Source of the DNA: an uncultured bacterium
GTDB lineage: Bacteria; Bacillota_I; Bacilli_A; RFN20; CAG-826
NCBI GenBank assembly: GCA_949297055.1
Contig: CASFRI010000035.1
Span: 16,348 to 80,347 of the forward strand
DNA: 64,000 nt
Direction: 5' to 3'
Made by a program: the position numbers and the translations under genes
In this document: piece by piece, positions 37,367 to 48,609 of the stretch
Layout: each line of letters begins with the position of its first letter
Position numbering within the stretch: the first letter of the stretch is position 1
The notes under the pieces: model-generated
Databases searched by the model: none
The model's input: only the letters and a program-made list of their open reading frames with translations
Told to the model about the DNA's origin: nothing

Positions 37367-38596
37367 ATGAAAGATTATTTGAAAGAAGCGGAAGAGGCTT
37401 ACACCCCTCTTTTAGCCATCGAAGAAGCAAGTAGGTGCTTATTATGCCATGACGCCCCATGCTCTAAGAATTGTCCTGCTGGTACAGATCCGGCAAGATT
37501 TATTCGTGCCTTACGTTTTTTAAATGAAAAAGGTGCGGCGGAAATTGTTAGAGAAAATAATGCTTTGGGAGCGATATGCGCAAGGGTGTGTCCACAAGAA
37601 AAATATTGTAAATTAGGTTGTTCAAGAAGTGGTATTGATAAACCAATTGAAATTGGTAAAATTCAACGTTACATCACTGATTTTGAAGCTAATTTAAAGA
37701 TGGAAATTTTAAGGAAGCCAGAAGTAGAATTAAAACAAAAGGTTGCCATCATTGGTTCTGGTCCTGGTGGTTTAGAACTTGCGGCTTTATTGCGTATGAA
37801 AGGTTATCAAGTGACAATCTTTGAAAAAGATGAAAAACTTGGTGGTTATCTAAGATATGGCATTCCTTCATATCGTTTACCAAATGATGTCTTAGATTTA
37901 GAAATTAAGCGTATCTTAGATTTAGGGGTTAAAAATTTAGTGAATCATCCAGTGGACGATGATGAATTTAAAAAATTAAAGGAAGAATATGACGCGGTCG
38001 TCGTTGGAACTGGTTACGAATTAGCAAAAACATTACCAATGTTTGAAGATGACCCACATGTCGAACTTGCGACCCAATTTTTAAGAAGAGCGAAAAATGA
38101 AGGTGGCGATATCGATGTCTATAGCGATACATTAGTCATCGGTGGTGGGGACGTGGCGATGGATGTCGTTACTACTTTAAAGCGCATTGGAACACCGCGT
38201 GTCATCGATGTTGTTTATGAAGAATTTAATGAATTTAGAGCCAGTCAAAAAGAATTAGATGAAGCAAGAGCGTTGAATGTTTCTATCATCGATGGTTACG
38301 TTCCTATGAGTTACGATGGAAAAGTTGTTACTTTTAAACATCGTCATTTACCAAGCGTTATTTCTATTGAACCTAAACATATCATCTTAGCGGTCGGTCA
38401 AGTTGTAAGACCTCAATTTGATTTAGATTACAATCTAGGTGAAGTTGTGGCCAATAATTACCGTGTCGGAGATTCTAATGTGTTTGTCGTCGGTGATATC
38501 GCTAAAGGCGATAAAACAGTCGTTGGAGCAGTTAAAACTGCAAAAGAGGCGGCTTACTTTATCGATTCATATTTAACGAAAGCGAGGACAAAATAA
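37367..38596 (+). CDS. preT: NAD-dependent dihydropyrimidine dehydrogenase subunit PreT (GltD-like)
   Basis: [37 protein letters not shown]…[20 protein letters not shown] is near-identical in pattern to E. coli PreT/YeiT. FAD/NAD Rossmann segment GSGPGG. Confidence 0.85.
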
Positions 38597-39843
38597 TGAT
38601 TAAAAAAGATTTGAGTATCGAATTCCTCGGTGTGAAATTTAAAAACCCTTTCATGCTTTCTTCTTCGCCTGTCGGTAATTGTTACGATATGTGCGCGAAA
38701 GCATTTAGATCAGGTTGGGGTGGAATCGTCTATAAAACTTTAATCAAAGATCCATGTGATGAATGTTCGCCACGTTACGATATGTTGACCAAGGAAGCTA
38801 CTCCTTTTGTCGGCTTTAAAAATATGGAACAACTTACTGAACATCCTTTAGAAGATGATTTAAGAGATATTACACGCCTTAAGAAAGAATTCCCTGATTG
38901 TGTTTTAGTCGCTTCTATCATGGCTGGAAGCGATGAAGATTGGAAGACTTTAGCGAAGCAAGTTGAAGATGCTGGTGCGGATATGATTGAACTTAATTTC
39001 TCTTGTCCTCAAATGACCGATACACATCTTGGTTCGGCAATTGGACAAAATCCAGATTTATGTCGTCAATACTGCAAAGCAGTAAAAAGCGCAACTAAGC
39101 TTCCTGTTATCGCTAAGATGACTCCTAATATCACCGATATGTGTGAAGTGGCTTTAGCAAGCAAAGAAGGTGGAGCGGACGCTATTTCTGCTATTAACAC
39201 GATTAAATCGATTTTAAATGTCGATTTAAATATGGAAGTGGGTCTACCTATCGTCAATGGTAAATCTTCGATTTCAGGTTATTCTGGTAAAGCGGTTAAA
39301 CCAGTAGCGTTAAGATTTATTCAACAATTAAGAGATAATCCTAAGACGAGAGATATTCCTATCTCTGGTATTGGTGGAATCGAAACTTGGCGTGATGCGG
39401 CTGAATTTATTTTACTTGGTGCTTCCACTTTACAAGTCACGACCGCGATTATGCAATATGGTTATCGTATCATCGATGATTTATGTAATGGTTTAATGCA
39501 CTATATGGAAGAAAAAGGTGTAGATCATCTTTCCGACTTAGTAGGAAAAGCAAATAAGAATGTTATTCCCGCGGAAGAACTTGACCGTGACTTTAAGATT
39601 TATCCTAAGATCGATAATGATAAGTGCGTCGGCTGCGGAAGATGTTACATCTCATGTTACGATGGATCTCATCAAGCTATGGAATGGGATAAGAAGACGA
39701 GAAGACCAACTTGTAACACTGATAAGTGTGTTGGTTGTTTGCTTTGTTCTTTAGTGTGTCCTGTCGGGGCAATTTCTAAAGGTGAAGTTGTCTTTAAGAA
39801 TGGACGCGGTAAAGGAAGAAAAACGAAAGATATTATCGTTTAA
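38596..39843 (+). CDS. preA: NAD-dependent dihydropyrimidine dehydrogenase subunit PreA (DHODH-like plus 2x[4Fe-4S] ferredoxin)
   Basis: DHOD-like TIM barrel plus C-terminal [11 protein letters not shown]…[16 protein letters not shown]. Confidence 0.85.
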
Positions 39844-40092: not shown

Positions 40093-41787
40093 ATGGTAGA
40101 AATTTTTAATGCTCTTGCAGCTCTTTTTTCTTTAGTTGGTGTTGGCGCGCCACAGAATTTTGTTTTTGAAGATAGTTTAAAAATAGATGCTATCGTAGAA
40201 GTCGCAAATTCTTCTTTAGTTGAAATACCATCTAATTATAAAGAATTACTATGTGAAAAACCAATTTATAATTTTTTAGGGGCAGACAGATATAGATTAA
40301 TTAAATTTCAAAGTAATTATGGAATTTATGACATTCAAGAAGAAATGTTAATAAAAATCTTATCATACGAACAATTTGAATGTCTAAATATTGACTCCGT
40401 TATTTTTTTCTTTCCTAATGATAAGTGTAGTTTTATATATTTTGATGAATTATCCAACTGTTTTTACGATTGTATGTCGGGTGCAAAAATTGATAATTTA
40501 AATCCTCTAGGCAATTCTGATTCAATTAATCGAGGTGAATATTATCTTAGAATTCCAATTGCGGAGGATGCCACTAAAATAGATAATTATTATTTTGAAG
40601 AACTTGGCTCTGCTCATGGTTATAATGTCGATGGCACTTGTGCCATCGTATCATCTCAAATTTTGCTAAATTATTATGATTCATTTTATGATGATAGATT
40701 GGTTGATGAACAACTTGATGTAAATTTTAAAACATTCGAAAGTAATTCCTCAATTTCTGAGTTTTATGTAGATTATAATACCGATTTTGCAGCATACGAT
40801 TATTTTCATGATTATTTATGTGATTTTATTGTAGAAAACACAGGTGAATCAAATCCACACGATGGGGTTGGCGTCAATTATCAAATTGAAATGATTAAAA
40901 AATATTATGAATCAAAAGGCATAGAATATACTTCTACAGTCTCTGAAGGTAACTGGGCTGATTTGATTACAGCTCGACAAGTTGGTGTTATTAAAGATGC
41001 TATTGACAATAATAGACCAGTTATAGCTGGTGGGAACAACGCAGTTGGACCACACTCTGTAGTTGCGTACGCTTACAATGATGAATATGTTTGGGTTCAT
41101 ACAGGCTGGGGTTATGTCGCTGCTGTATCTTGGGATATGTTCACAAGCCATATATTTGATTTTTCAAAGTATGGGTATGCTGGTGCTATTGATATTTATC
41201 CGTCTGGCGAACATTTTCATTCAGATAATTTTTACGTTGAGTCTGACGAAGAATATTTATGTACATGTGGTTCAACATTTAAAAAACAAAAAATATCACC
41301 AGAGGATTATGGCTTTGAGGATGCTTACCCATCCACTAATACTTATAAACTAGTAGGTTTATCTAATGGCTTTGAATTTGAAACAAATAGATTAAGGGCT
41401 GGATATATTCAAAGTCAAGTTGTGAATTTATCACCTAGAAGAGAAGGCGCTGGAACAGCATATTTGGAATATAATTTTCCTAGTTCTGTTGCACGTATTA
41501 ATGTAGATTTGTCATATTGGAGTTCTCAAGAATTAGTGGAATCACCTAACTTTACTTGTTGTTTTGAGTATTTTGATAGAACATCTGCTATTAATCCAGT
41601 TAAATTGATTGATTTGGTCAATGATGTTGAGTTAAGTACTGATAGATACAATCAGGATAATTTTGCATTTCACTTTTCTAAAAACAATTTAACAAAGTTC
41701 AGATTTTATTCAACATCTGATGCTTTAGGTGATAGAAATAAAGGAAGACTTTCAATAGGGGATATGGTGATATTCTATGAAACATAA
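40093..41787 (+). CDS. Hypothetical protein with a papain-like (C39-like) cysteine peptidase signature
   Basis: 564 aa. N-terminal hydrophobic segment ALAALFSLVGVGA. Candidate catalytic Cys in DGTCAIVSSQILLNYY and His in GPHSVVAYAYNDEYVWVHTGWGY. Very AT-rich, with Asn/Tyr-rich composition. Confidence 0.4.
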   Translation: MVEIFNALAALFSLVGVGAPQNFVFEDSLKIDAIVEVANSSLVEIPSNYKELLCEKPIYNFLGADRYRLIKFQSNYGIYDIQEEMLIKILSYEQFECLNIDSVIFFFPNDKCSFIYFDELSNCFYDCMSGAKIDNLNPLGNSDSINRGEYYLRIPIAEDATKIDNYYFEELGSAHGYNVDGTCAIVSSQILLNYYDSFYDDRLVDEQLDVNFKTFESNSSISEFYVDYNTDFAAYDYFHDYLCDFIVENTGESNPHDGVGVNYQIEMIKKYYESKGIEYTSTVSEGNWADLITARQVGVIKDAIDNNRPVIAGGNNAVGPHSVVAYAYNDEYVWVHTGWGYVAAVSWDMFTSHIFDFSKYGYAGAIDIYPSGEHFHSDNFYVESDEEYLCTCGSTFKKQKISPEDYGFEDAYPSTNTYKLVGLSNGFEFETNRLRAGYIQSQVVNLSPRREGAGTAYLEYNFPSSVARINVDLSYWSSQELVESPNFTCCFEYFDRTSAINPVKLIDLVNDVELSTDRYNQDNFAFHFSKNNLTKFRFYSTSDALGDRNKGRLSIGDMVIFYET

Positions 41788-42435: not shown

Positions 42436-43659
42436 ATGGCTAAAATCAATAATCCGATAGAGGAAAATAATTTTAAAGAAGAACTATTAGAATTATCTAA
42501 GATTCAAGAGGAAGCAAAAAGATGTCTCAATTGTAAAGCACCTCGTTGTTCTTTAATGTGTCCAATGGATTGTGAGCCACATCGTTTCATCGCTTTACTT
42601 AATAAAGGAGATGTTGAAGAAGCGGCAAAATTTGTTTATACAAAAAATCCTTTAAGTTACATCTGTGGCTACATTTGCCCGAGCGAAAGATATTGCGAAA
42701 AAAATTGTTTAAGAGGAAGAATTGATAGTGTTATTAAAGTAAGAGAAATACATCGTTTTCTTGGTTCGCTTAATTCTAGATTTGAAGAAGAATTTAAACC
42801 GTTGAAGAATAAATCTATCTTGATCGTCGGTGGTGGTCCTATAGGCTTAATAATCGCTAATAAGATGGCAAAACATGGGTTAAAATCCACTATTTTAGAG
42901 AAAAGCTCATATTTAGGAGGAGCTTTAAGAAATCAAATTCCAGCTTTTAGATTGCCTGCTAGTGTCATCGATCATGATTTAAATCCATTGTTAAACGAAC
43001 GCATCGAAATTAAATTGAAGATGACTTTTGGAAAAGATGCCACTTACGATGATGTCAAGGACAAATACGATGCAATTATCTTTACGACCGGTTTAGATAA
43101 ACCTAGAACTTACGATTTTATGTTGGATCATCCAAAAGTTATTTTAGCGCAGGATTTTTTAAGGATGTGTCGCCACGATTTAGAAATTGAGACTTACGAT
43201 AAAATAGTTGTCATCGGTGGGAGTGATACAGCGATGGATTGTCTCGCGAGTGCGAAAAAAATCGCAAAAGAAGTCGTAGGAGTATATCGAAGAGAAAAAG
43301 AAAGATTAAGAGCAAATAAAGAATCTTTGGAGATGGGATTTAAGGCTGCGGATGATTTCATCTTTAATCGTACACCTTTAAGATTTGATGAAGTAGGGAA
43401 TATGGTCTTTAAAAACTATTATGGTGAAGATGAAGAAACTATTCCTGCGAGTTTATACGTTTTAGCTATTGGTGTTCTTATCGATGATAGTTATTTAAAA
43501 GATTTCTTTGAATTTGAAGAAGACTCTATAAAGTGTAAGAAAATACCTAATGCTTTTTATGCAGGCGATATGTCATCTAGTGATAAAACATTAGTAAGCG
43601 CACTTTCGACAGTGGAAGAAGTCGTTAAAGAAATTTTCGAATATTTGAAGTTAGATTGA
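42436..43659 (+). CDS. PreT/GltD-like NAD(P)H-dependent FAD/Fe-S oxidoreductase subunit (lone paralog)
   Basis: CLNCKAPRCSLMCPMDCEPHRFIALL…AAKFVYTKNPLSYICGYICP, plus IVGGGPIGL Rossmann and GGSDTAMD. Confidence 0.7.
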   Translation: MAKINNPIEENNFKEELLELSKIQEEAKRCLNCKAPRCSLMCPMDCEPHRFIALLNKGDVEEAAKFVYTKNPLSYICGYICPSERYCEKNCLRGRIDSVIKVREIHRFLGSLNSRFEEEFKPLKNKSILIVGGGPIGLIIANKMAKHGLKSTILEKSSYLGGALRNQIPAFRLPASVIDHDLNPLLNERIEIKLKMTFGKDATYDDVKDKYDAIIFTTGLDKPRTYDFMLDHPKVILAQDFLRMCRHDLEIETYDKIVVIGGSDTAMDCLASAKKIAKEVVGVYRREKERLRANKESLEMGFKAADDFIFNRTPLRFDEVGNMVFKNYYGEDEETIPASLYVLAIGVLIDDSYLKDFFEFEEDSIKCKKIPNAFYAGDMSSSDKTLVSALSTVEEVVKEIFEYLKLD

Positions 43660-43758
43660 CCTTAATATTTAATAAATTTTTCTATTAGTAAATCATTTAT
43701 AAATACTTTATAATACTTTTGTTTAAGAACTAATTTGTTTCTAGGAGGAAATAAGTAC

Positions 43759-44250
43759 ATGGCTTCTTTATCAGCCGGGGCGAAAAAACGCATTTTAGAA
43801 ATATGTGCGGAATATAAAAATGAACCGACCCCATTAATTATGATTTTAAGTGAAGTACAAAATGAATTTGGTTACGTACCACTTGAAGTGCAAGAAATTA
43901 TTGCATCCGAATTAGACATTCCAGTTTCTGATGTTTATGGCGTTGTTACTTTTTATGCATTCTTTTCATTGAAACCAAAAGGAAAATATGTCATTGGTGT
44001 CTGTCTTGGTACAGCCTGTTACGTCAAAGGTTCGCAACAAGTAATAGATAAGTTTGCTGAACTTTTGAATACGAAACCAGGCGGAACTTCTGATGATGGT
44101 TTATTCTCCCTTGATGCTTTACGTTGTATTGGTGCATGCGGTATTGCGCCAGCAGTAAACGTCAATGGAAAAGTTTATCCGAAGGTGACAGTGGACCAAG
44201 TACCTCATATTATCGAGGAATATCGTAAATTAGAAGGAGAAAATTTATGA
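43759..44250 (+). CDS. hydC: [FeFe]-hydrogenase NuoE-like [2Fe-2S] subunit HydC
   Basis: Thioredoxin-like ferredoxin GVCLGTACYVKG…CIGACGIAPAV. GGAGG RBS before ATG 43759. Confidence 0.8.
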   Translation: MASLSAGAKKRILEICAEYKNEPTPLIMILSEVQNEFGYVPLEVQEIIASELDIPVSDVYGVVTFYAFFSLKPKGKYVIGVCLGTACYVKGSQQVIDKFAELLNTKPGGTSDDGLFSLDALRCIGACGIAPAVNVNGKVYPKVTVDQVPHIIEEYRKLEGENL

Positions 44251-46112
44251 TTGATTCAACGAAATCATTAAATGAGAAAATCGCTCATTGCTCGCAATGT
44301 TTAAAAAATAAAGTCGAAGGATTAGATGGAAAGCGTGCGGTCGTCGTCTGCGGTGGGACAGGATGTATGGCTTCACATTCGGAAGAAATTCTTGAAGAGT
44401 TTAAGAAATTAATTGAAGAATACGACTTAGCGGATAAAGTTAGTGTTAATCATGTCGGTTGCTTTGGTTTTTGCTCTCAAGGACCATTCGTCAAAATTTT
44501 TCCAGAAGATACTTTATATCACGCTGTGAAAGTTGAAGATGTAAGAAAGATTGTCGAAGAAGATTTACTTAATAATCATGTCGTCACTGAATTATTTTAC
44601 GAAGATCCAGCGACGCATCAAAAAGTGCAAAGGCAAGATGATATTAATTTCTATAAGAAACAAGTACGCTTAGCGTTACATGGATGCGGCCATATCAATC
44701 CTGAAAATATCGATGAAGCTTTAGGCTATGGGGCTTTTAAAGGCTTAGAAAAAGCTTTATCTATGAAACCACAAGAAGTCATCGATTTAATTTTAAAAAG
44801 TGGTTTAAGAGGCCGCGGCGGAGCGGGCTTCCCAACTGGCCGTAAATGGCAATTTGCTTACGATCAAAAAAATGATACAAAATATGTCGTCTGTAATGGC
44901 GATGAAGGTGATCCAGGTGCGTTCATGGATCGTTCCATTTTAGAAGGTAATCCATTAAACGTCATCGAAGGGATGATGATTGCAGGTTACGCAATTGGAG
45001 CGAAGAATGGTTATTTTTACGTTCGTGCGGAATATCCAATCGCTGTTAAACGTTTAAGAATTGCTATTAAAGAAGCTGAAGAATTAGGTCTTGTTGGTGA
45101 TCATATCTTAGGTACAGATTTCTCGTTCCATGTTCATATTAGATTAGGAGCAGGGGCGTTCGTCTGTGGCGAAGAAACTGCTTTACTTAATTCTATCGAA
45201 GGTAAAAGAGGTATGCCTCGTCCTCGTCCACCATTCCCAGCTATTAGTGGTTTATGGGGTAAACCTACCATTATTAATAACGTCGAAACTTTAGCTTGCG
45301 TTCCTTACATCTTAAGAGAAGGTTTAGAAAACTTTACCAAATATGGAACTGAAAAGTCTAAAGGAACGAAGGTTTTTGCCTTAGGTGGAAAAATTAATAA
45401 TGTCGGCTTGGTGGAAGTTCCAATGGGCACGACTCTAAGAGAATTAATTTATGATATCGGTGGCGGTATTCCTAATGGGAAGAAATTTAAAGCTATCCAA
45501 ACAGGTGGTCCATCTGGTGGTTGTTTAACTGAAAAAGATTTAGATACCCCAATCGATTTCGATAACTTAGTGGCAAAGGGTTCGATGATGGGTTCTGGTG
45601 GCGCGATCGTCATGGACGAAGATAACTGTATGGTTGACGTTGCTAAATTCTATATGGAATTTATTTGTGATGAATCATGCGGTAAATGTTCACCTTGTCG
45701 TATCGGTACGAAACGTATCTTAGAAATTTTAAATAAGATTGTTAGAGGTAATGGTACGAGACAAGATTTAGAAGATTTATTGCATCTTTCTAAGACGATT
45801 AAAGTTGGTTCATTATGCGGCTTAGGTCAAACAGCGGCGAACCCAATCTTATCGACAACTTCTAATTTCATGGAAGAATATTTAGAACATATTGACGACA
45901 AGAAATGTCGCGCGCATGTTTGTAAACATCTTATGCGTTATGTCATCGATGCGGAAAAATGTAAGAAATGTTCTTTATGTGCAAGAAATTGTCCTGTTAA
46001 CGCTATTAGTGGTGTGGTTGGAAAAGAACCATTTGTCATCGATCAAAATAAATGTATCAAGTGTGGTATGTGCTTCAGCGCTTGCCGTTTCAAGGCTATC
46101 AATAAGGAATAA
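44247..46112 (+). CDS. hydB: [FeFe]-hydrogenase NuoF-like flavoprotein subunit HydB (NADH/FMN, Fe-S)
   Basis: GRGGAGFPTG, CGKCSPCRIGT, two C-terminal 4Fe-4S motifs CKKCSLCARNCP and CIKCGMCFSACR, and an N-terminal thioredoxin-like 2Fe-2S domain. Confidence 0.85.
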   Translation: MIDSTKSLNEKIAHCSQCLKNKVEGLDGKRAVVVCGGTGCMASHSEEILEEFKKLIEEYDLADKVSVNHVGCFGFCSQGPFVKIFPEDTLYHAVKVEDVRKIVEEDLLNNHVVTELFYEDPATHQKVQRQDDINFYKKQVRLALHGCGHINPENIDEALGYGAFKGLEKALSMKPQEVIDLILKSGLRGRGGAGFPTGRKWQFAYDQKNDTKYVVCNGDEGDPGAFMDRSILEGNPLNVIEGMMIAGYAIGAKNGYFYVRAEYPIAVKRLRIAIKEAEELGLVGDHILGTDFSFHVHIRLGAGAFVCGEETALLNSIEGKRGMPRPRPPFPAISGLWGKPTIINNVETLACVPYILREGLENFTKYGTEKSKGTKVFALGGKINNVGLVEVPMGTTLRELIYDIGGGIPNGKKFKAIQTGGPSGGCLTEKDLDTPIDFDNLVAKGSMMGSGGAIVMDEDNCMVDVAKFYMEFICDESCGKCSPCRIGTKRILEILNKIVRGNGTRQDLEDLLHLSKTIKVGSLCGLGQTAANPILSTTSNFMEEYLEHIDDKKCRAHVCKHLMRYVIDAEKCKKCSLCARNCPVNAISGVVGKEPFVIDQNKCIKCGMCFSACRFKAINKE

Positions 46113-46132: not shown

Positions 46133-47914
46133 ATGGCTTTAGTAAATATTAAAATTGAAGGTCGTCCTTATCAAGTTGAAGAAGGGCTTACAATCTTAGA
46201 AGCTTGCCGTTCTGTTGGCTATCGTATTCCTTCATTATGTACTTTTAATAAAGGACAATGTTCAAAAGCTTCTTGTCGAGTTTGTCTTGTCTCCGTTAAA
46301 GGAGCGAGAGGTTTAGTAGCTTCTTGCGTCTATCCAGTGAATGAAGGTATGGAAATTTCTATTTCTAATATCGACGCAGTGGAAGCAAGAAGAGCGAACG
46401 TCGAATTACTTTTATCCAATCACAACATGAACTGTCAACAATGCGATAAAAATGGTCATTGTGAACTTTTAGAAGTGGCTAAAATTGTTGGAGCAAGAGA
46501 AGGGATGTATCAAGGAGAAAAGACTCCGACAACATTTGATAATCTTGCACCTTCATTAGTGAGAGATACATCCAAATGTATTTTATGTGGAAGATGTATC
46601 GAAAGATGTAAAGACGCACAAGGTATTGGTATCCTCGGTTTTGAAAATCGTGGTTTCAATACGATCGTCGCTCCAAGCGGCAATAGAAGTTTTGCTAGTT
46701 CTCCTTGTATCCAATGCGGTCAGTGTGTGAACGTTTGCCCAACTGGTGCCTTGATGGAAAATAGCGAAATTCATCTCATCGATAAAGCATTTAAAGAAGG
46801 TAAGAAAGTTTTCGTTCAAACCGCTCCCGCAGTTAGAGCTGCTATCGCAGAAGAATTTGGTGCTAAGATTGGTAGCGTTGGTACAGGTAAAATGGTGGCT
46901 GCCCTTCATCGTCTTGGTTTCTACCGCGTCTTCGATACGAACTTCGGGGCAGATTTAACGATTATGGAAGAAGCTTACGAATTATTAGGTAGAATTAAAA
47001 ATGGTGGTGTTTTACCACAAATTACATCTTGTTCGCCGGGCTGGGTTAACTATTTAGAATATTATTATCCTGAAGTTATTCCACATGTTTCTTCATGTAA
47101 ATCTCCACATGAAATGCTCGGAGCAATCATTAAGTCTTATTATGCTAAAAAGCACGATTTAGATCCAAAAGATATTTTCGTCGTAAGTGTCATGCCTTGC
47201 GTCGCTAAAAAATATGAAAAAGATCGTCCCGCGAATCGAGCGGTCGATGGTTTAAAAGATGTTGATGCTGTCATCACGACAAGAGAACTTGCGAAGATGA
47301 TTAAGCGTGCTGGTATCGATTGGTCATATTTACCAGAAGAACAATTCGATGATGATTTACTAGGTGAATATACTGGTGCAGGTGTTATCTTTGGCGTGAC
47401 TGGTGGGGTGATGGAAGCCGCTCTTAGAACTGCTTATTTCGCTCTTACTGGTAAAGAATATCCCGCCATCGAATTTAAGGAAGTAAGAAATGTTTCTTTG
47501 TTTAAAGAAGCAAGCATCGATATTGATGGTAAAGTGATTAAGATTGCAGCTGTTTCAGGTATGAAAAATGCAAAACCATTATTAGAAGATGTTAAAAATG
47601 GTAAATCACCATATCACTTCATCGAAATTATGGGTTGTCCTGGTGGTTGTATCAATGGTGGCGGTCAACCTTACGTCCACCCAAATCTTCTTATGAACGA
47701 AGAGGCTAATATTTTAGATACTTACATTCAAAAACGTGCCTCCGTTCTTTATAGTGAAGATGAAAGACAAGTTTTAAGACAATCGCATAATAATTCTGAC
47801 ATCAAAAAACTTTACAAAGATTATCTTGGTGAACCATGTTCCCATTTAGCGCATGAATTACTCCATACGCATTACGATGCACATCGTGAAAAATATCCGC
47901 AGGTGAAAAAATAA
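46133..47914 (+). CDS. hydA: [FeFe]-hydrogenase catalytic subunit HydA (CpI-like M3 architecture)
   Basis: N-terminal 2Fe-2S, then HNMNCQQCDKNGHC, then two 4Fe-4S sites. H-cluster motifs L2 MPCVAKKYE and L3 EIMGCPGGCINGGGQP are canonical. L1 reads TSCSPGW instead of TSCCPxW. Confidence 0.85.
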   Translation: MALVNIKIEGRPYQVEEGLTILEACRSVGYRIPSLCTFNKGQCSKASCRVCLVSVKGARGLVASCVYPVNEGMEISISNIDAVEARRANVELLLSNHNMNCQQCDKNGHCELLEVAKIVGAREGMYQGEKTPTTFDNLAPSLVRDTSKCILCGRCIERCKDAQGIGILGFENRGFNTIVAPSGNRSFASSPCIQCGQCVNVCPTGALMENSEIHLIDKAFKEGKKVFVQTAPAVRAAIAEEFGAKIGSVGTGKMVAALHRLGFYRVFDTNFGADLTIMEEAYELLGRIKNGGVLPQITSCSPGWVNYLEYYYPEVIPHVSSCKSPHEMLGAIIKSYYAKKHDLDPKDIFVVSVMPCVAKKYEKDRPANRAVDGLKDVDAVITTRELAKMIKRAGIDWSYLPEEQFDDDLLGEYTGAGVIFGVTGGVMEAALRTAYFALTGKEYPAIEFKEVRNVSLFKEASIDIDGKVIKIAAVSGMKNAKPLLEDVKNGKSPYHFIEIMGCPGGCINGGGQPYVHPNLLMNEEANILDTYIQKRASVLYSEDERQVLRQSHNNSDIKKLYKDYLGEPCSHLAHELLHTHYDAHREKYPQVKK

Positions 47915-47916
47915 TT

Positions 47917-48609
47917 ATGATTAAACACGTCATCTTCGATTTAGATGGCACGCTTCTTGATACGATGAGCGATATGCTCTTAGCCCTAAATCTTACGACT
48001 AAGAAAATATTTCCAAAAAGAAGAATGCATCATTTTAAAAAAACTGATGGCGTGTTTTTATACGGTAATGGGCAAAATGTTTTAGTTAGTAGGGCTTTAA
48101 AAATTCTTGGTGTCGAAGATGCACAAATTAAAGAAGAATTTAAAAATACTTTTTATCAAATTTATGAAGAAAAATCTAATACTTTATCTAAGCCTTATCC
48201 TTACGTCATCGATACATTATTAGAACTTAAAAGAAGGGGTATTAATTGCTATATTCTTTCTAATAAGCCTATTAAAATTTTATCTAGAGCGGTGAATAAA
48301 TATTTCACAAGTGCTTTAATTATAGATTTTCTTGGTTACACTGGCGAAGTACATAAAAAGCCTGATCCATTTTGCTTTTTGCCATTAAAAGAAAAATATT
48401 CTTTAAAAGAAGAAGAATGTCTTTACGTCGGTGATTCACTAGTGGATTATCAGTTTGCAAAAAATACGAACATGCATTTATGTATGGTGATGTATGGTTA
48501 TGAAAGTAAACAAAATTTAGATGCTTTAGATAATGCTTTTTTCATTCGCAAAATGAATAAGTTACCGCAGGTGATCGATTATATCGATTCTTACGTTAAG
48601 ATAAAATAA
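47917..48609 (+). CDS. HAD-superfamily hydrolase (phosphatase)
   Basis: FDLDGTLLDT motif I. GDS…D motif IV. Confidence 0.7.
   Translation: MIKHVIFDLDGTLLDTMSDMLLALNLTTKKIFPKRRMHHFKKTDGVFLYGNGQNVLVSRALKILGVEDAQIKEEFKNTFYQIYEEKSNTLSKPYPYVIDTLLELKRRGINCYILSNKPIKILSRAVNKYFTSALIIDFLGYTGEVHKKPDPFCFLPLKEKYSLKEEECLYVGDSLVDYQFAKNTNMHLCMVMYGYESKQNLDALDNAFFIRKMNKLPQVIDYIDSYVKIK

What the first reader, a model, noticed from the sequence alone, without database searches (positions are those of the whole stretch)
47012..47041. HydA H-cluster motif L1 reads TSCSPGW: the second Cys of the conserved TSCCP motif is Ser
Seen in sequence: codons caa att aca tct tgt tcg ccg ggc tgg give QITSCSPGW. The protein is otherwise highly CpI-like. 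L2 (MPCVAKKYE) and L3 (EIMGCPGGCINGGGQP) are canonical.

Established knowledge: in TSCCPxW the first Cys is the proton-relay residue, and the second is one of the four Cys ligands anchoring the [4Fe-4S] subcluster of the H-cluster. TCG to TGY needs two nucleotide changes, so this is not a trivial single-base error.

Inference: the protein is either a natural Ser-ligated H-cluster variant (unusual, and likely to alter redox properties), an inactivated hydrogenase, or an assembly error.
Basis: partly seen in the sequence, partly recalled or inferred. Interest (0 to 1): 0.6.

Follow-up and report, generated by a model that had tools for sequence, protein, structure and literature searches.

The report
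Known serine-type [FeFe]-hydrogenase active-site variant
The serine that replaces a cluster-binding cysteine in this hydrogenase is real, but it is a conserved natural variant already described in the active, structurally solved Acetobacterium woodii enzyme, so it is neither an error nor a dead gene.

Summary
The ORF at 46133..47914 (+) reads QITSCSPGW at nt 47018-47044, and Ser301 is codon TCG at 47033-47035. L2 and L3 are canonical.

The Ser is not an error and the gene is not inactivated:
- All 120 closest protein clusters and all 80 genome loci (55-97% identity, several phyla) carry TSCSPGW.
- Five different Ser codons are used at the site.
- dN/dS against the nearest relatives is 0.04-0.05.

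The gene is the last of a hydC-hydB-hydA operon. Each of the three products has A. woodii HydABC (PDB 7q4v) as its best solved-structure match. That HydA1 carries the same Ser301. Katsyv et al. 2023 describe it as replacing a Cys ligand of the H-cluster [4Fe-4S], with no apparent effect on the infrared signature and with activity similar to the Cys-type enzyme.

Kertess et al. 2017, citing Winkler et al. 2013, state that Ser occupies this position in about 20% of putative [FeFe]-hydrogenases. I found 16 Ser against 99 Cys among intact 50%-identity representatives.

The feature is therefore already known, and this protein is one more member of the Ser-type HydABC group. One question stays open: why nature tolerates Ser here when the engineered C115S change in the algal enzyme abolishes cluster binding. 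That question is already in the literature.

The parts
43735..44250 (+). hydC: NuoE-like thioredoxin-type [2Fe-2S] subunit
   Evidence: Pfam PF01257, E 9e-49. Best solved-structure hit is A. woodii HydC 7q4v_C, E 1e-51. The TTG start is uncertain; an in-frame ATG lies 8 codons downstream.
44247..46112 (+). hydB: NuoF-like FMN/NAD subunit with an N-terminal [2Fe-2S] domain and two C-terminal [4Fe-4S] motifs (bifurcating type)
   Evidence: Pfam Complex1_51K, NADH_4Fe-4S, SLBB, 2Fe-2S_thioredx (res 28-105) and Fer4 x2 (res 565-618). Best solved-structure hit is A. woodii HydB 7q4v_B, E 1e-244. GGPSG motif at residue 420, the signature of bifurcating beta subunits per Losey 2020.
46133..47914 (+). 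hydA: [FeFe]-hydrogenase catalytic subunit, 593 aa, with an F-domain ([2Fe-2S] plus three [4Fe-4S] motifs) and an H-domain
   Evidence: Pfam Fe_hyd_lg_C 1.5e-96, Fe_hyd_SSU 2.5e-23, Fer2_4, NADH-G_4Fe-4S_3 and Fer4. NCBIfam NF040763 scores 812.6, above its cut-off of 765. Best solved-structure hit is A. woodii HydA1 7q4v_A, E 4e-180.
47018..47044 (+). L1 motif QITSCSPGW: Cys300 is the proton-relay Cys, and Ser301 (TCG, 47033-47035) stands in place of the [4Fe-4S]H ligand Cys
   Evidence: Aligned to Ser301 of A. woodii HydA1 and to Cys299 of T. kivui HydA1.
46964..46993 (+). MEEAYELLGR segment holding the conserved Glu/Glu/Arg residues of the proton-transfer pathway. By my recollection of CpI numbering these are E279, E282 and R286.
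   Evidence: The Glu, Glu and Arg are identical in the aligned A. woodii and T. kivui sequences. Coordinates. The CpI numbering is from memory and was not tested here.
47192..47218 (+). L2 motif MPCVAKKYE (Cys356, [4Fe-4S]H ligand)
47624..47671 (+). L3 motif EIMGCPGGCINGGGQP (Cys502 ligand; Cys506 is the L3 Cys that I take, from CpI Cys503 as I recall it, to bridge to the [2Fe] subsite)
   Evidence: The bridging assignment is from memory; Katsyv 2023 as quoted instead names Cys356Aw/Cys354Tk (the L2 position) as the Cys that also binds the di-iron core.

Best explanation
hydA encodes a functional catalytic subunit of a HydABC-type, NuoE/NuoF-coupled and probably electron-bifurcating [FeFe]-hydrogenase. 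It belongs to a large natural sub-group in which the L1 ligand of the H-cluster [4Fe-4S] is Ser instead of Cys. By homology with A. woodii HydA1, Ser301 takes the position of the fourth cluster ligand. The neighbouring Cys300 keeps its proton-relay role, and Cys356, Cys502 and Cys506 supply the other three ligands, one of which bridges to the [2Fe] subsite. The enzyme would exchange H2 with NAD(P)H and ferredoxin through HydB and HydC. Shown here: the sequence, its conservation, purifying selection, operon structure and homology. Shown in the literature for the homologue: Ser at the ligand position, a normal FTIR signature and activity. Inferred: that this particular protein is assembled and active, that Ser O-gamma actually binds iron, and that the complex bifurcates.
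For: The Ser is real and aligns to the ligand position. TSCSPGW is present in 120/120 nearest 90%-identity clusters. It is also present in 80/80 genome loci at 55-97% identity from Bacilli, Clostridia, Coriobacteriia and Ca. Pelethenecus, including cultured Butyrivibrio crossotus and Beduini massiliensis. Ser codons at the site are TCA 29, TCT 17, TCG 17, TCC 15 and AGT 2. So 32 loci sit one transversion from a Cys codon, yet none has Cys. dN/dS is 0.040 and 0.049 against the two closest relatives, at dS of about 0.55-0.60. The other four key Cys residues are intact. hydB lies directly upstream in 79/80 loci and hydC in 59. All three subunits have A. woodii HydABC as their best solved-structure hit. 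HydB carries the GGPSG bifurcating signature and the extra FeS domains. [quoted passage not shown] Kertess 2017, citing Winkler 2013, reports Ser at this position in about 20% of sequences.
Against: No biochemical data exist for this protein or its close relatives. Identity to the characterised A. woodii enzyme is only 49%. No HydE/F/G maturase genes were found among the window ORFs I scanned, and the rest of the genome is not available. In C. reinhardtii HydA1 the equivalent engineered change (C115S) gave low [4Fe-4S] occupancy and no activity, so Ser is not tolerated in every context. Whether Ser O-gamma truly binds iron rests on a cryo-EM model; I could not inspect the map, and the paper's supplement is not held.
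Confidence: 0.85

Rival explanations
1. The Ser codon is a sequencing or assembly error, and the true residue is Cys.
For: None beyond the departure from the textbook TSCCP consensus.
Against: All 200 independent relatives from different assemblies and sources carry Ser at the aligned position, using five different Ser codons. The closest relatives at 96-97% identity have TCT and TCG. The same Ser is in three PDB entries of a purified enzyme.
Confidence: 0.01
2. The protein is an inactivated or non-catalytic hydrogenase-like protein, for example a redox module or a sensor that no longer turns over H2.
For: Degenerate relatives do exist. P0124 and P0208 have lost several H-cluster ligands (patterns NSTMF and YSRAF). 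Di Rienzi 2013 notes TSCSPGW together with a lost L3 Cys in two Melainabacteria genes. C115S kills the algal enzyme. No maturase genes were seen in the window.
Against: Here L2, L3, the proton-relay Cys and the aligned proton-pathway residues are all intact. dN/dS is 0.04-0.05. The conserved operon matches an active enzyme that has the same Ser.
Confidence: 0.04
3. The enzyme is active, but Ser301 is not an iron ligand. The [4Fe-4S]H cluster is held by three Cys plus something else, such as water or hydroxide, the neighbouring Cys300, or in some relatives an extra Cys next to the first L3 Cys.
For: Kertess 2017 suggests the neighbouring Cys114 could substitute as a ligand in C115A. 50 of the 120 close homologues have an extra Cys at position 501 (E[IV]MCCPGGC). 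The published Ser ligation rests on cryo-EM.
Against: The window protein has Gly, not Cys, at position 501. Using Cys300 as a ligand would remove the proton relay, yet the A. woodii enzyme has normal activity and H-cluster states. Strict conservation of Ser with codon turnover, rather than Ala, Gly or Thr, argues that the hydroxyl matters. Only one Ala and one Thr occur at this site among 130 representatives.
Confidence: 0.1

Closest known systems
Acetobacterium woodii HydA1 of the electron-bifurcating HydABC(D) complex (PDB 7q4v, 7q4w, 8a5e; Katsyv et al. 2023, PMC10021017)
   Same: Same L1 sequence ITSCSPGW with Ser301 at the ligand position. Same domain architecture. The same three subunit types are encoded, and each subunit here has its best solved-structure hit in this complex.
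   Different: Only 49% identical over 584 aa. Residue 501 is Gly here and Ala in A. woodii. No separate hydD-like gene was identified here (not specifically searched). The organism is an uncultured low-GC (36%) Bacilli-type bacterium rather than an acetogen.
Thermoanaerobacter kivui HydA1 (PDB 8a6t) and Clostridium pasteurianum CpI (e.g. 4xdc): canonical Cys-type group A enzymes
   Same: Full-length homology (E 4e-168 and 2e-143). Identical L2 and L3 logic, with the proton-relay Cys conserved.
   Different: They have TSCCP (Cys ligand) preceded by Phe. The window has TSCSP preceded by Ile. CpI is monomeric and ferredoxin-dependent (my own knowledge).
Engineered C115S variant of Chlamydomonas reinhardtii HydA1 (Kertess et al. 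2017, PMC5855289)
   Same: The same position is changed from Cys to Ser. C115 is adjacent to C114, the proton-relay Cys of TSCCP.
   Different: The engineered variant lost most of its [4Fe-4S] cluster, took up no [2Fe] subsite and was inactive. The natural Ser-type lineage is conserved under strong purifying selection, and its characterised member is active.
TSCSPGW hydrogenases noted in Melainabacteria ACD20 (Di Rienzi et al. 2013, PMC3787301)
   Same: Same L1 variant in trimeric 'confurcating' FeFe hydrogenase operons. A Ca. Pelethenecus locus (L039) is among my Ser-type relatives.
   Different: Those two ACD20 genes also replace an L3 Cys with Ile. The window protein keeps both L3 Cys residues.

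Membership tests
[FeFe]-hydrogenase, group A (H-domain) | L1 motif TSC[C/S]PxW, holding the proton-relay Cys and a [4Fe-4S]H ligand | tested here: met
   TSCSPGW at residues 298-304. The strict textbook form TSCCPxW is not met, but the Ser form is that of the active, solved A. woodii HydA1.
[FeFe]-hydrogenase, group A (H-domain) | L2 motif MPCxxKxxE | tested here: met
   MPCVAKKYE, residues 354-362.
[FeFe]-hydrogenase, group A (H-domain) | L3 motif ExMxCxxGCxxGGGxP | tested here: met
   EIMGCPGGCINGGGQP, residues 498-513.
[FeFe]-hydrogenase, group A (H-domain) | Profile membership above curated cut-offs | tested here: met
   PF02906 323 bits and PF02256 82 bits. TIGR02512 511 bits against a cut-off of 406, and NF040763 812.6 against 765.
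[FeFe]-hydrogenase, group A (H-domain) | An assembled H-cluster and H2 turnover; HydE/F/G maturases in the genome | not testable with these tools
   No maturase was found among 20 window ORFs scanned.
HydABC-type electron-bifurcating hydrogenase (group A3) | Co-encoded NuoE-like HydC and NuoF-like HydB next to HydA | tested here: met
   hydC 43735-44250, hydB 44247-46112 and hydA 46133-47914 are on one strand and overlap or lie 20 nt apart. The arrangement is conserved in 79/80 related loci.
HydABC-type electron-bifurcating hydrogenase (group A3) | HydB carries an N-terminal [2Fe-2S] domain and a C-terminal 2x[4Fe-4S] domain in addition to the FMN/NAD core | tested here: met
   Pfam hits at residues 28-105 and 565-618. 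Full-length alignment to A. woodii, T. kivui and T. maritima HydB.
HydABC-type electron-bifurcating hydrogenase (group A3) | GGPSG motif in the SLBB region of HydB, found in bifurcating and absent from NADH-only enzymes (Losey 2020) | tested here: met
   GGPSG at HydB residue 420. The criterion is quoted. The other Losey positions (Tm 232, 234, 367) were not tested.
HydABC-type electron-bifurcating hydrogenase (group A3) | H2-dependent, coupled reduction of NAD(P)+ and ferredoxin | not testable with these tools
   This needs an enzyme assay. NCBIfam names the best model 'NADH-dependent [FeFe] hydrogenase, group A6', which does not settle bifurcating versus non-bifurcating.
Ser-type L1 sub-group (A. 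woodii HydA1-like) | Ser aligned to Ser301Aw, with the other three ligand Cys and the proton-relay Cys retained | tested here: met
   Pattern C-S-C-C-C. Pairwise alignment places ITSCSPGW opposite ITSCSPGW.

The most novel reading that the evidence does not exclude
The Ser ligand is not a neutral curiosity but an epistatically locked feature of one old HydABC lineage that dominates in gut and rumen Bacillota. On this reading, co-evolved second-shell residues make an oxygen ligand workable and tune the [4Fe-4S]H potential or catalytic bias for the bifurcating reaction. The candidate residues are Ile instead of Phe at -4, Gly at +2, Ile499, and Gly or Cys at 501. This would explain why the same swap destroys the algal enzyme. 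My data do not exclude it: Ser is invariant across 200 relatives although 32 of the 80 genome loci are one base from a Cys codon, and the listed positions differ in frequency between Ser and Cys types. The covariation could equally be shared ancestry.
Probability: 0.3. Interest if true: 0.4.

Novelty: new member of a known kind. Interest (0 to 1): 0.18.

Why it matters
It matters little as a discovery. The Cys-to-Ser change at this H-cluster ligand position is already recorded in sequence surveys (about 20% of putative [FeFe]-hydrogenases). It has also been seen in the cryo-EM structure of the active A. woodii HydABC. Its practical value is for annotation: TSCSPGW should not be used to call a HydA gene defective or mis-assembled, and motif-based hydrogenase classifiers should accept Ser here. 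The remaining scientific interest is biochemical. A natural oxygen ligand on the H-cluster cubane is tolerated in one lineage but destructive when engineered into the algal enzyme. No S-to-C back-mutation or cluster potential measurement for a Ser-type enzyme turned up in the literature I could search.

Tried and rejected
1. Monophyly of the Ser type. An NJ tree of 130 H-domains from 50%-identity representatives was star-like and scattered the 16 Ser-type sequences, so I do not claim a single origin. Nearest-neighbour analysis shows 12 of 16 Ser types have a Ser-type nearest neighbour although Ser types make up only about 14% of the set. Four do not (P0126, P0129, P0130, P0219), so recurrence or reversion cannot be excluded.
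2. Compensating Cys. I looked for a residue that could replace the lost thiolate. Position 501 is Cys in 50 of 120 close homologues but Gly in the window, so it cannot explain this protein.
3. Perfectly covarying positions. There are none besides 301 itself, and the best correlates reach only about 0.6 total-variation distance.
4. Maturases in the window. None were found among the ORFs scanned.
5. The supplement of Katsyv 2023 (Fig. S4i, Ser-Fe geometry) is not held.
6. The in-frame 'stops' flagged in L020 and L023 by my dN/dS script were just the natural stop codons of 588-aa proteins.
7. Structure prediction was not run. The tool returns no coordinates, so it could not test Ser-Fe geometry.
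8. I did not obtain a printed alignment to CpI (one search showed other chains), so the CpI residue numbers I quote are from memory.

Full report
**Observation**

The bases at 47018-47044 read caa att aca tct tgt tcg ccg ggc tgg. They lie in frame in a 593-aa ORF at 46133..47914 on the + strand and give QITSCSPGW, residues 296-304. The serine is residue 301, codon TCG at 47033-47035. HMMER alignments to solved structures place Ser301 opposite the second Cys of TSCCP in T. kivui HydA1, T. kivui HDCR HydA2 and the D. desulfuricans enzyme.

**What the gene is**

- HydA carries Fe_hyd_lg_C, Fe_hyd_SSU, an N-terminal [2Fe-2S] domain, the NuoG-type [4Fe-4S] motif and a 2x[4Fe-4S] ferredoxin domain.
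- It passes the curated cut-offs of TIGR02512 and NF040763.
- It is the last gene of a tight three-gene unit: a NuoE-like gene at 43735-44250, a NuoF-like gene at 44247-46112, then hydA.
- The NuoF-like protein has the extra N-terminal [2Fe-2S] and C-terminal 2x[4Fe-4S] domains. It also has GGPSG at residue 420, which Losey et al. 2020 give as a signature of bifurcating beta subunits.
- Each of the three proteins has its best solved-structure match in the electron-bifurcating HydABC of Acetobacterium woodii: 7q4v chain A at 4e-180, chain B at 1e-244 and chain C at 1e-51.
- The same hydB-hydA adjacency occurs in 79 of 80 related genome loci, and hydC was also found in 59 of them.

**The decisive point**

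A. woodii HydA1 itself reads ITSCSPGW at the aligned position. Katsyv et al. 2023 (PMC10021017) write that in the A. woodii complex one Cys ligand of the H-cluster [4Fe-4S] (Cys299 in T. kivui) is replaced by Ser301. [quoted passage not shown]

Two earlier papers also record the variant:
- Kertess et al. 2017 (PMC5855289), citing Winkler, Esselborn and Happe 2013, state that serine is present at this position in about 20% of analysed putative hydrogenase sequences.
- Di Rienzi et al. 2013 (PMC3787301) noted TSCSPGW in Melainabacteria hydrogenases.

**Is it an error or a decaying gene?**

It is neither.
- All 120 nearest 90%-identity clusters (74-92% identical) have TSCSPGW.
- All 80 genome loci recovered with peptide patterns that did not include L1 have it too. 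They are 55-97% identical and come from Bacilli, Clostridia, Coriobacteriia and Ca. Pelethenecus. They include cultured Butyrivibrio crossotus, Beduini massiliensis, Ruminococcaceae YRB3002 and Coriobacteriales OH1046.
- The Ser codon varies: TCA 29, TCT 17, TCG 17, TCC 15 and AGT 2. So 32 loci sit one transversion from a Cys codon, yet none has Cys. This points to long-standing selection for Ser, or to epistatic lock-in.
- Nei-Gojobori dN/dS against the two closest relatives is 0.040 and 0.049, at dS of about 0.55-0.60.
- The proton-relay Cys and the other three ligand Cys residues are intact.

**How common is the Ser type?**

An exhaustive search of 1.84 billion 50%-identity representatives listed the best 150 relatives. 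Of 130 with a full H-domain, 99 have the pattern C-C-C-C-C and 16 have C-S-C-C-C, counting the window and A. woodii. That is about 14% of intact sequences, in line with the published figure of about 20%.

Ser types cluster at the top of the ranking, and 12 of 16 have a Ser-type nearest neighbour. However, an NJ tree of these very divergent representatives is star-like and does not resolve one origin from several.

No other column covaries perfectly with position 301. The partial correlates are:
- Ile rather than Phe four residues upstream (position 297);
- Gly at 303;
- Ile at 499;
- Gly, Ala or Cys at 501, where Cys types have Ala;
- Ile or Leu at 308.

These may be second-shell adaptations or simply clade markers.

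**Mechanism**

By homology, Ser301 occupies the fourth ligand position of [4Fe-4S]H. Cys300 remains the proton relay to the bridging amine. Cys356, Cys502 and Cys506 are the remaining ligands. I take Cys506 to be the one bridging to the [2Fe] subsite, by analogy with CpI Cys503 as I recall it. Katsyv et al., as quoted, instead name the L2-position Cys (Cys356Aw) as the one that also binds the di-iron core, and I could not resolve this discrepancy here. Electrons pass through the F-domain clusters to HydB (FMN, NAD(P)) and onward to ferredoxin, as in the A. woodii and T. kivui structures.

Activity, real Fe-O ligation and bifurcation are all inferred for this protein. The main caveat is that the engineered equivalent in the algal enzyme, C115S, gave poor cluster occupancy and no activity. 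Tolerance of Ser therefore depends on protein context. A minor rival is that Ser is not a true ligand. The strict conservation of Ser, with only one Ala and one Thr at this site in 130 representatives, and the normal behaviour of the A. woodii enzyme argue against that rival.

**Verdict**

Of its three readings, 'natural variant' is right, while 'assembly error' and 'inactivated' are excluded or very unlikely. The variant is not rare and is already documented, including in a solved, active enzyme. This protein is a further, uncharacterised member from an uncultured low-GC Bacilli-type organism. Window GC is 36%, and the nearest genomes are labelled uncultured Bacilli.

Interest is low. The open question is what the oxygen ligand does to the cubane, and why it works here but not in the algal enzyme. 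That question is genuine but already posed in the literature. I found no S-to-C study of a natural Ser-type enzyme in the searchable library.

Noticed in passing
window 42436-43659 (+), and 37367-39843 (+): A GltD/PreT-like NAD(P)-binding FeS flavoprotein gene ends 76 nt upstream of hydC. It is conserved at 82-85% identity in the same place in the two closest genomes, L001 and L002. A second GltD-like gene plus a PreA (dihydropyrimidine dehydrogenase) gene lie at 37367-39843. Whether the upstream gene is a fourth partner of the hydrogenase, for example an NADPH link, or just a neighbour is unknown.
   Followed up: partly
P0001-P0120 (close homologues), aligned to window residue 501 (nt 47633-47635): 50 of the 120 closest Ser-type homologues have an extra Cys directly before the first L3 Cys (E[IV]MCCPGGC). 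The window has Gly there, and 82 of 99 Cys-type enzymes have Ala. An additional thiol next to a cluster that has lost a Cys ligand is suggestive, but it does not apply to the window protein.
   Followed up: partly
P0124 and P0208 (50%-identity representatives): These are full-length HydA relatives (48% and 38% identical) that keep Ser at the L1 position but have lost the proton-relay Cys and the L2/L3 ligand Cys residues (patterns N-S-T-M-F and Y-S-R-A-F). They are probably H-cluster-less hydrogenase-like proteins derived from the Ser-type group, reminiscent of the ACD20 genes.
   Followed up: no
P0121 (representative library): A 4122-aa predicted protein with seven HydA H-domain stretches. 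MPCTVKKTE repeats six times at an exact 444-residue period, and there are no regex matches to L1 or L3. It may be a tandem array, an assembly artefact or a eukaryotic gene model.
   Followed up: no
window 40093-41787 (+) and 27296-28675 (+): Two large ORFs of 564 and 459 aa have no Pfam match. The first has only a sub-threshold NCBIfam hit to a Mycoplasma-type putative cysteine peptidase (32 bits against a cut-off of 45).
   Followed up: no
window 1-64000: No Rfam family reached its gathering score anywhere in the 64-kb window.
   Followed up: no
L015:13701-13727: About 6 kb downstream of the Ser-type hydA in this Clostridiales MAG, a second reading frame carries AKTSSCPFW. This is an L1-like motif with the first (proton-relay) Cys replaced by Ser instead.
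   Followed up: no
window 47917-48609 (+): A HAD-family hydrolase gene starts 3 nt after the hydA stop. A homologue follows hydA in 10 of the related loci, mostly Bacilli.
   Followed up: partly
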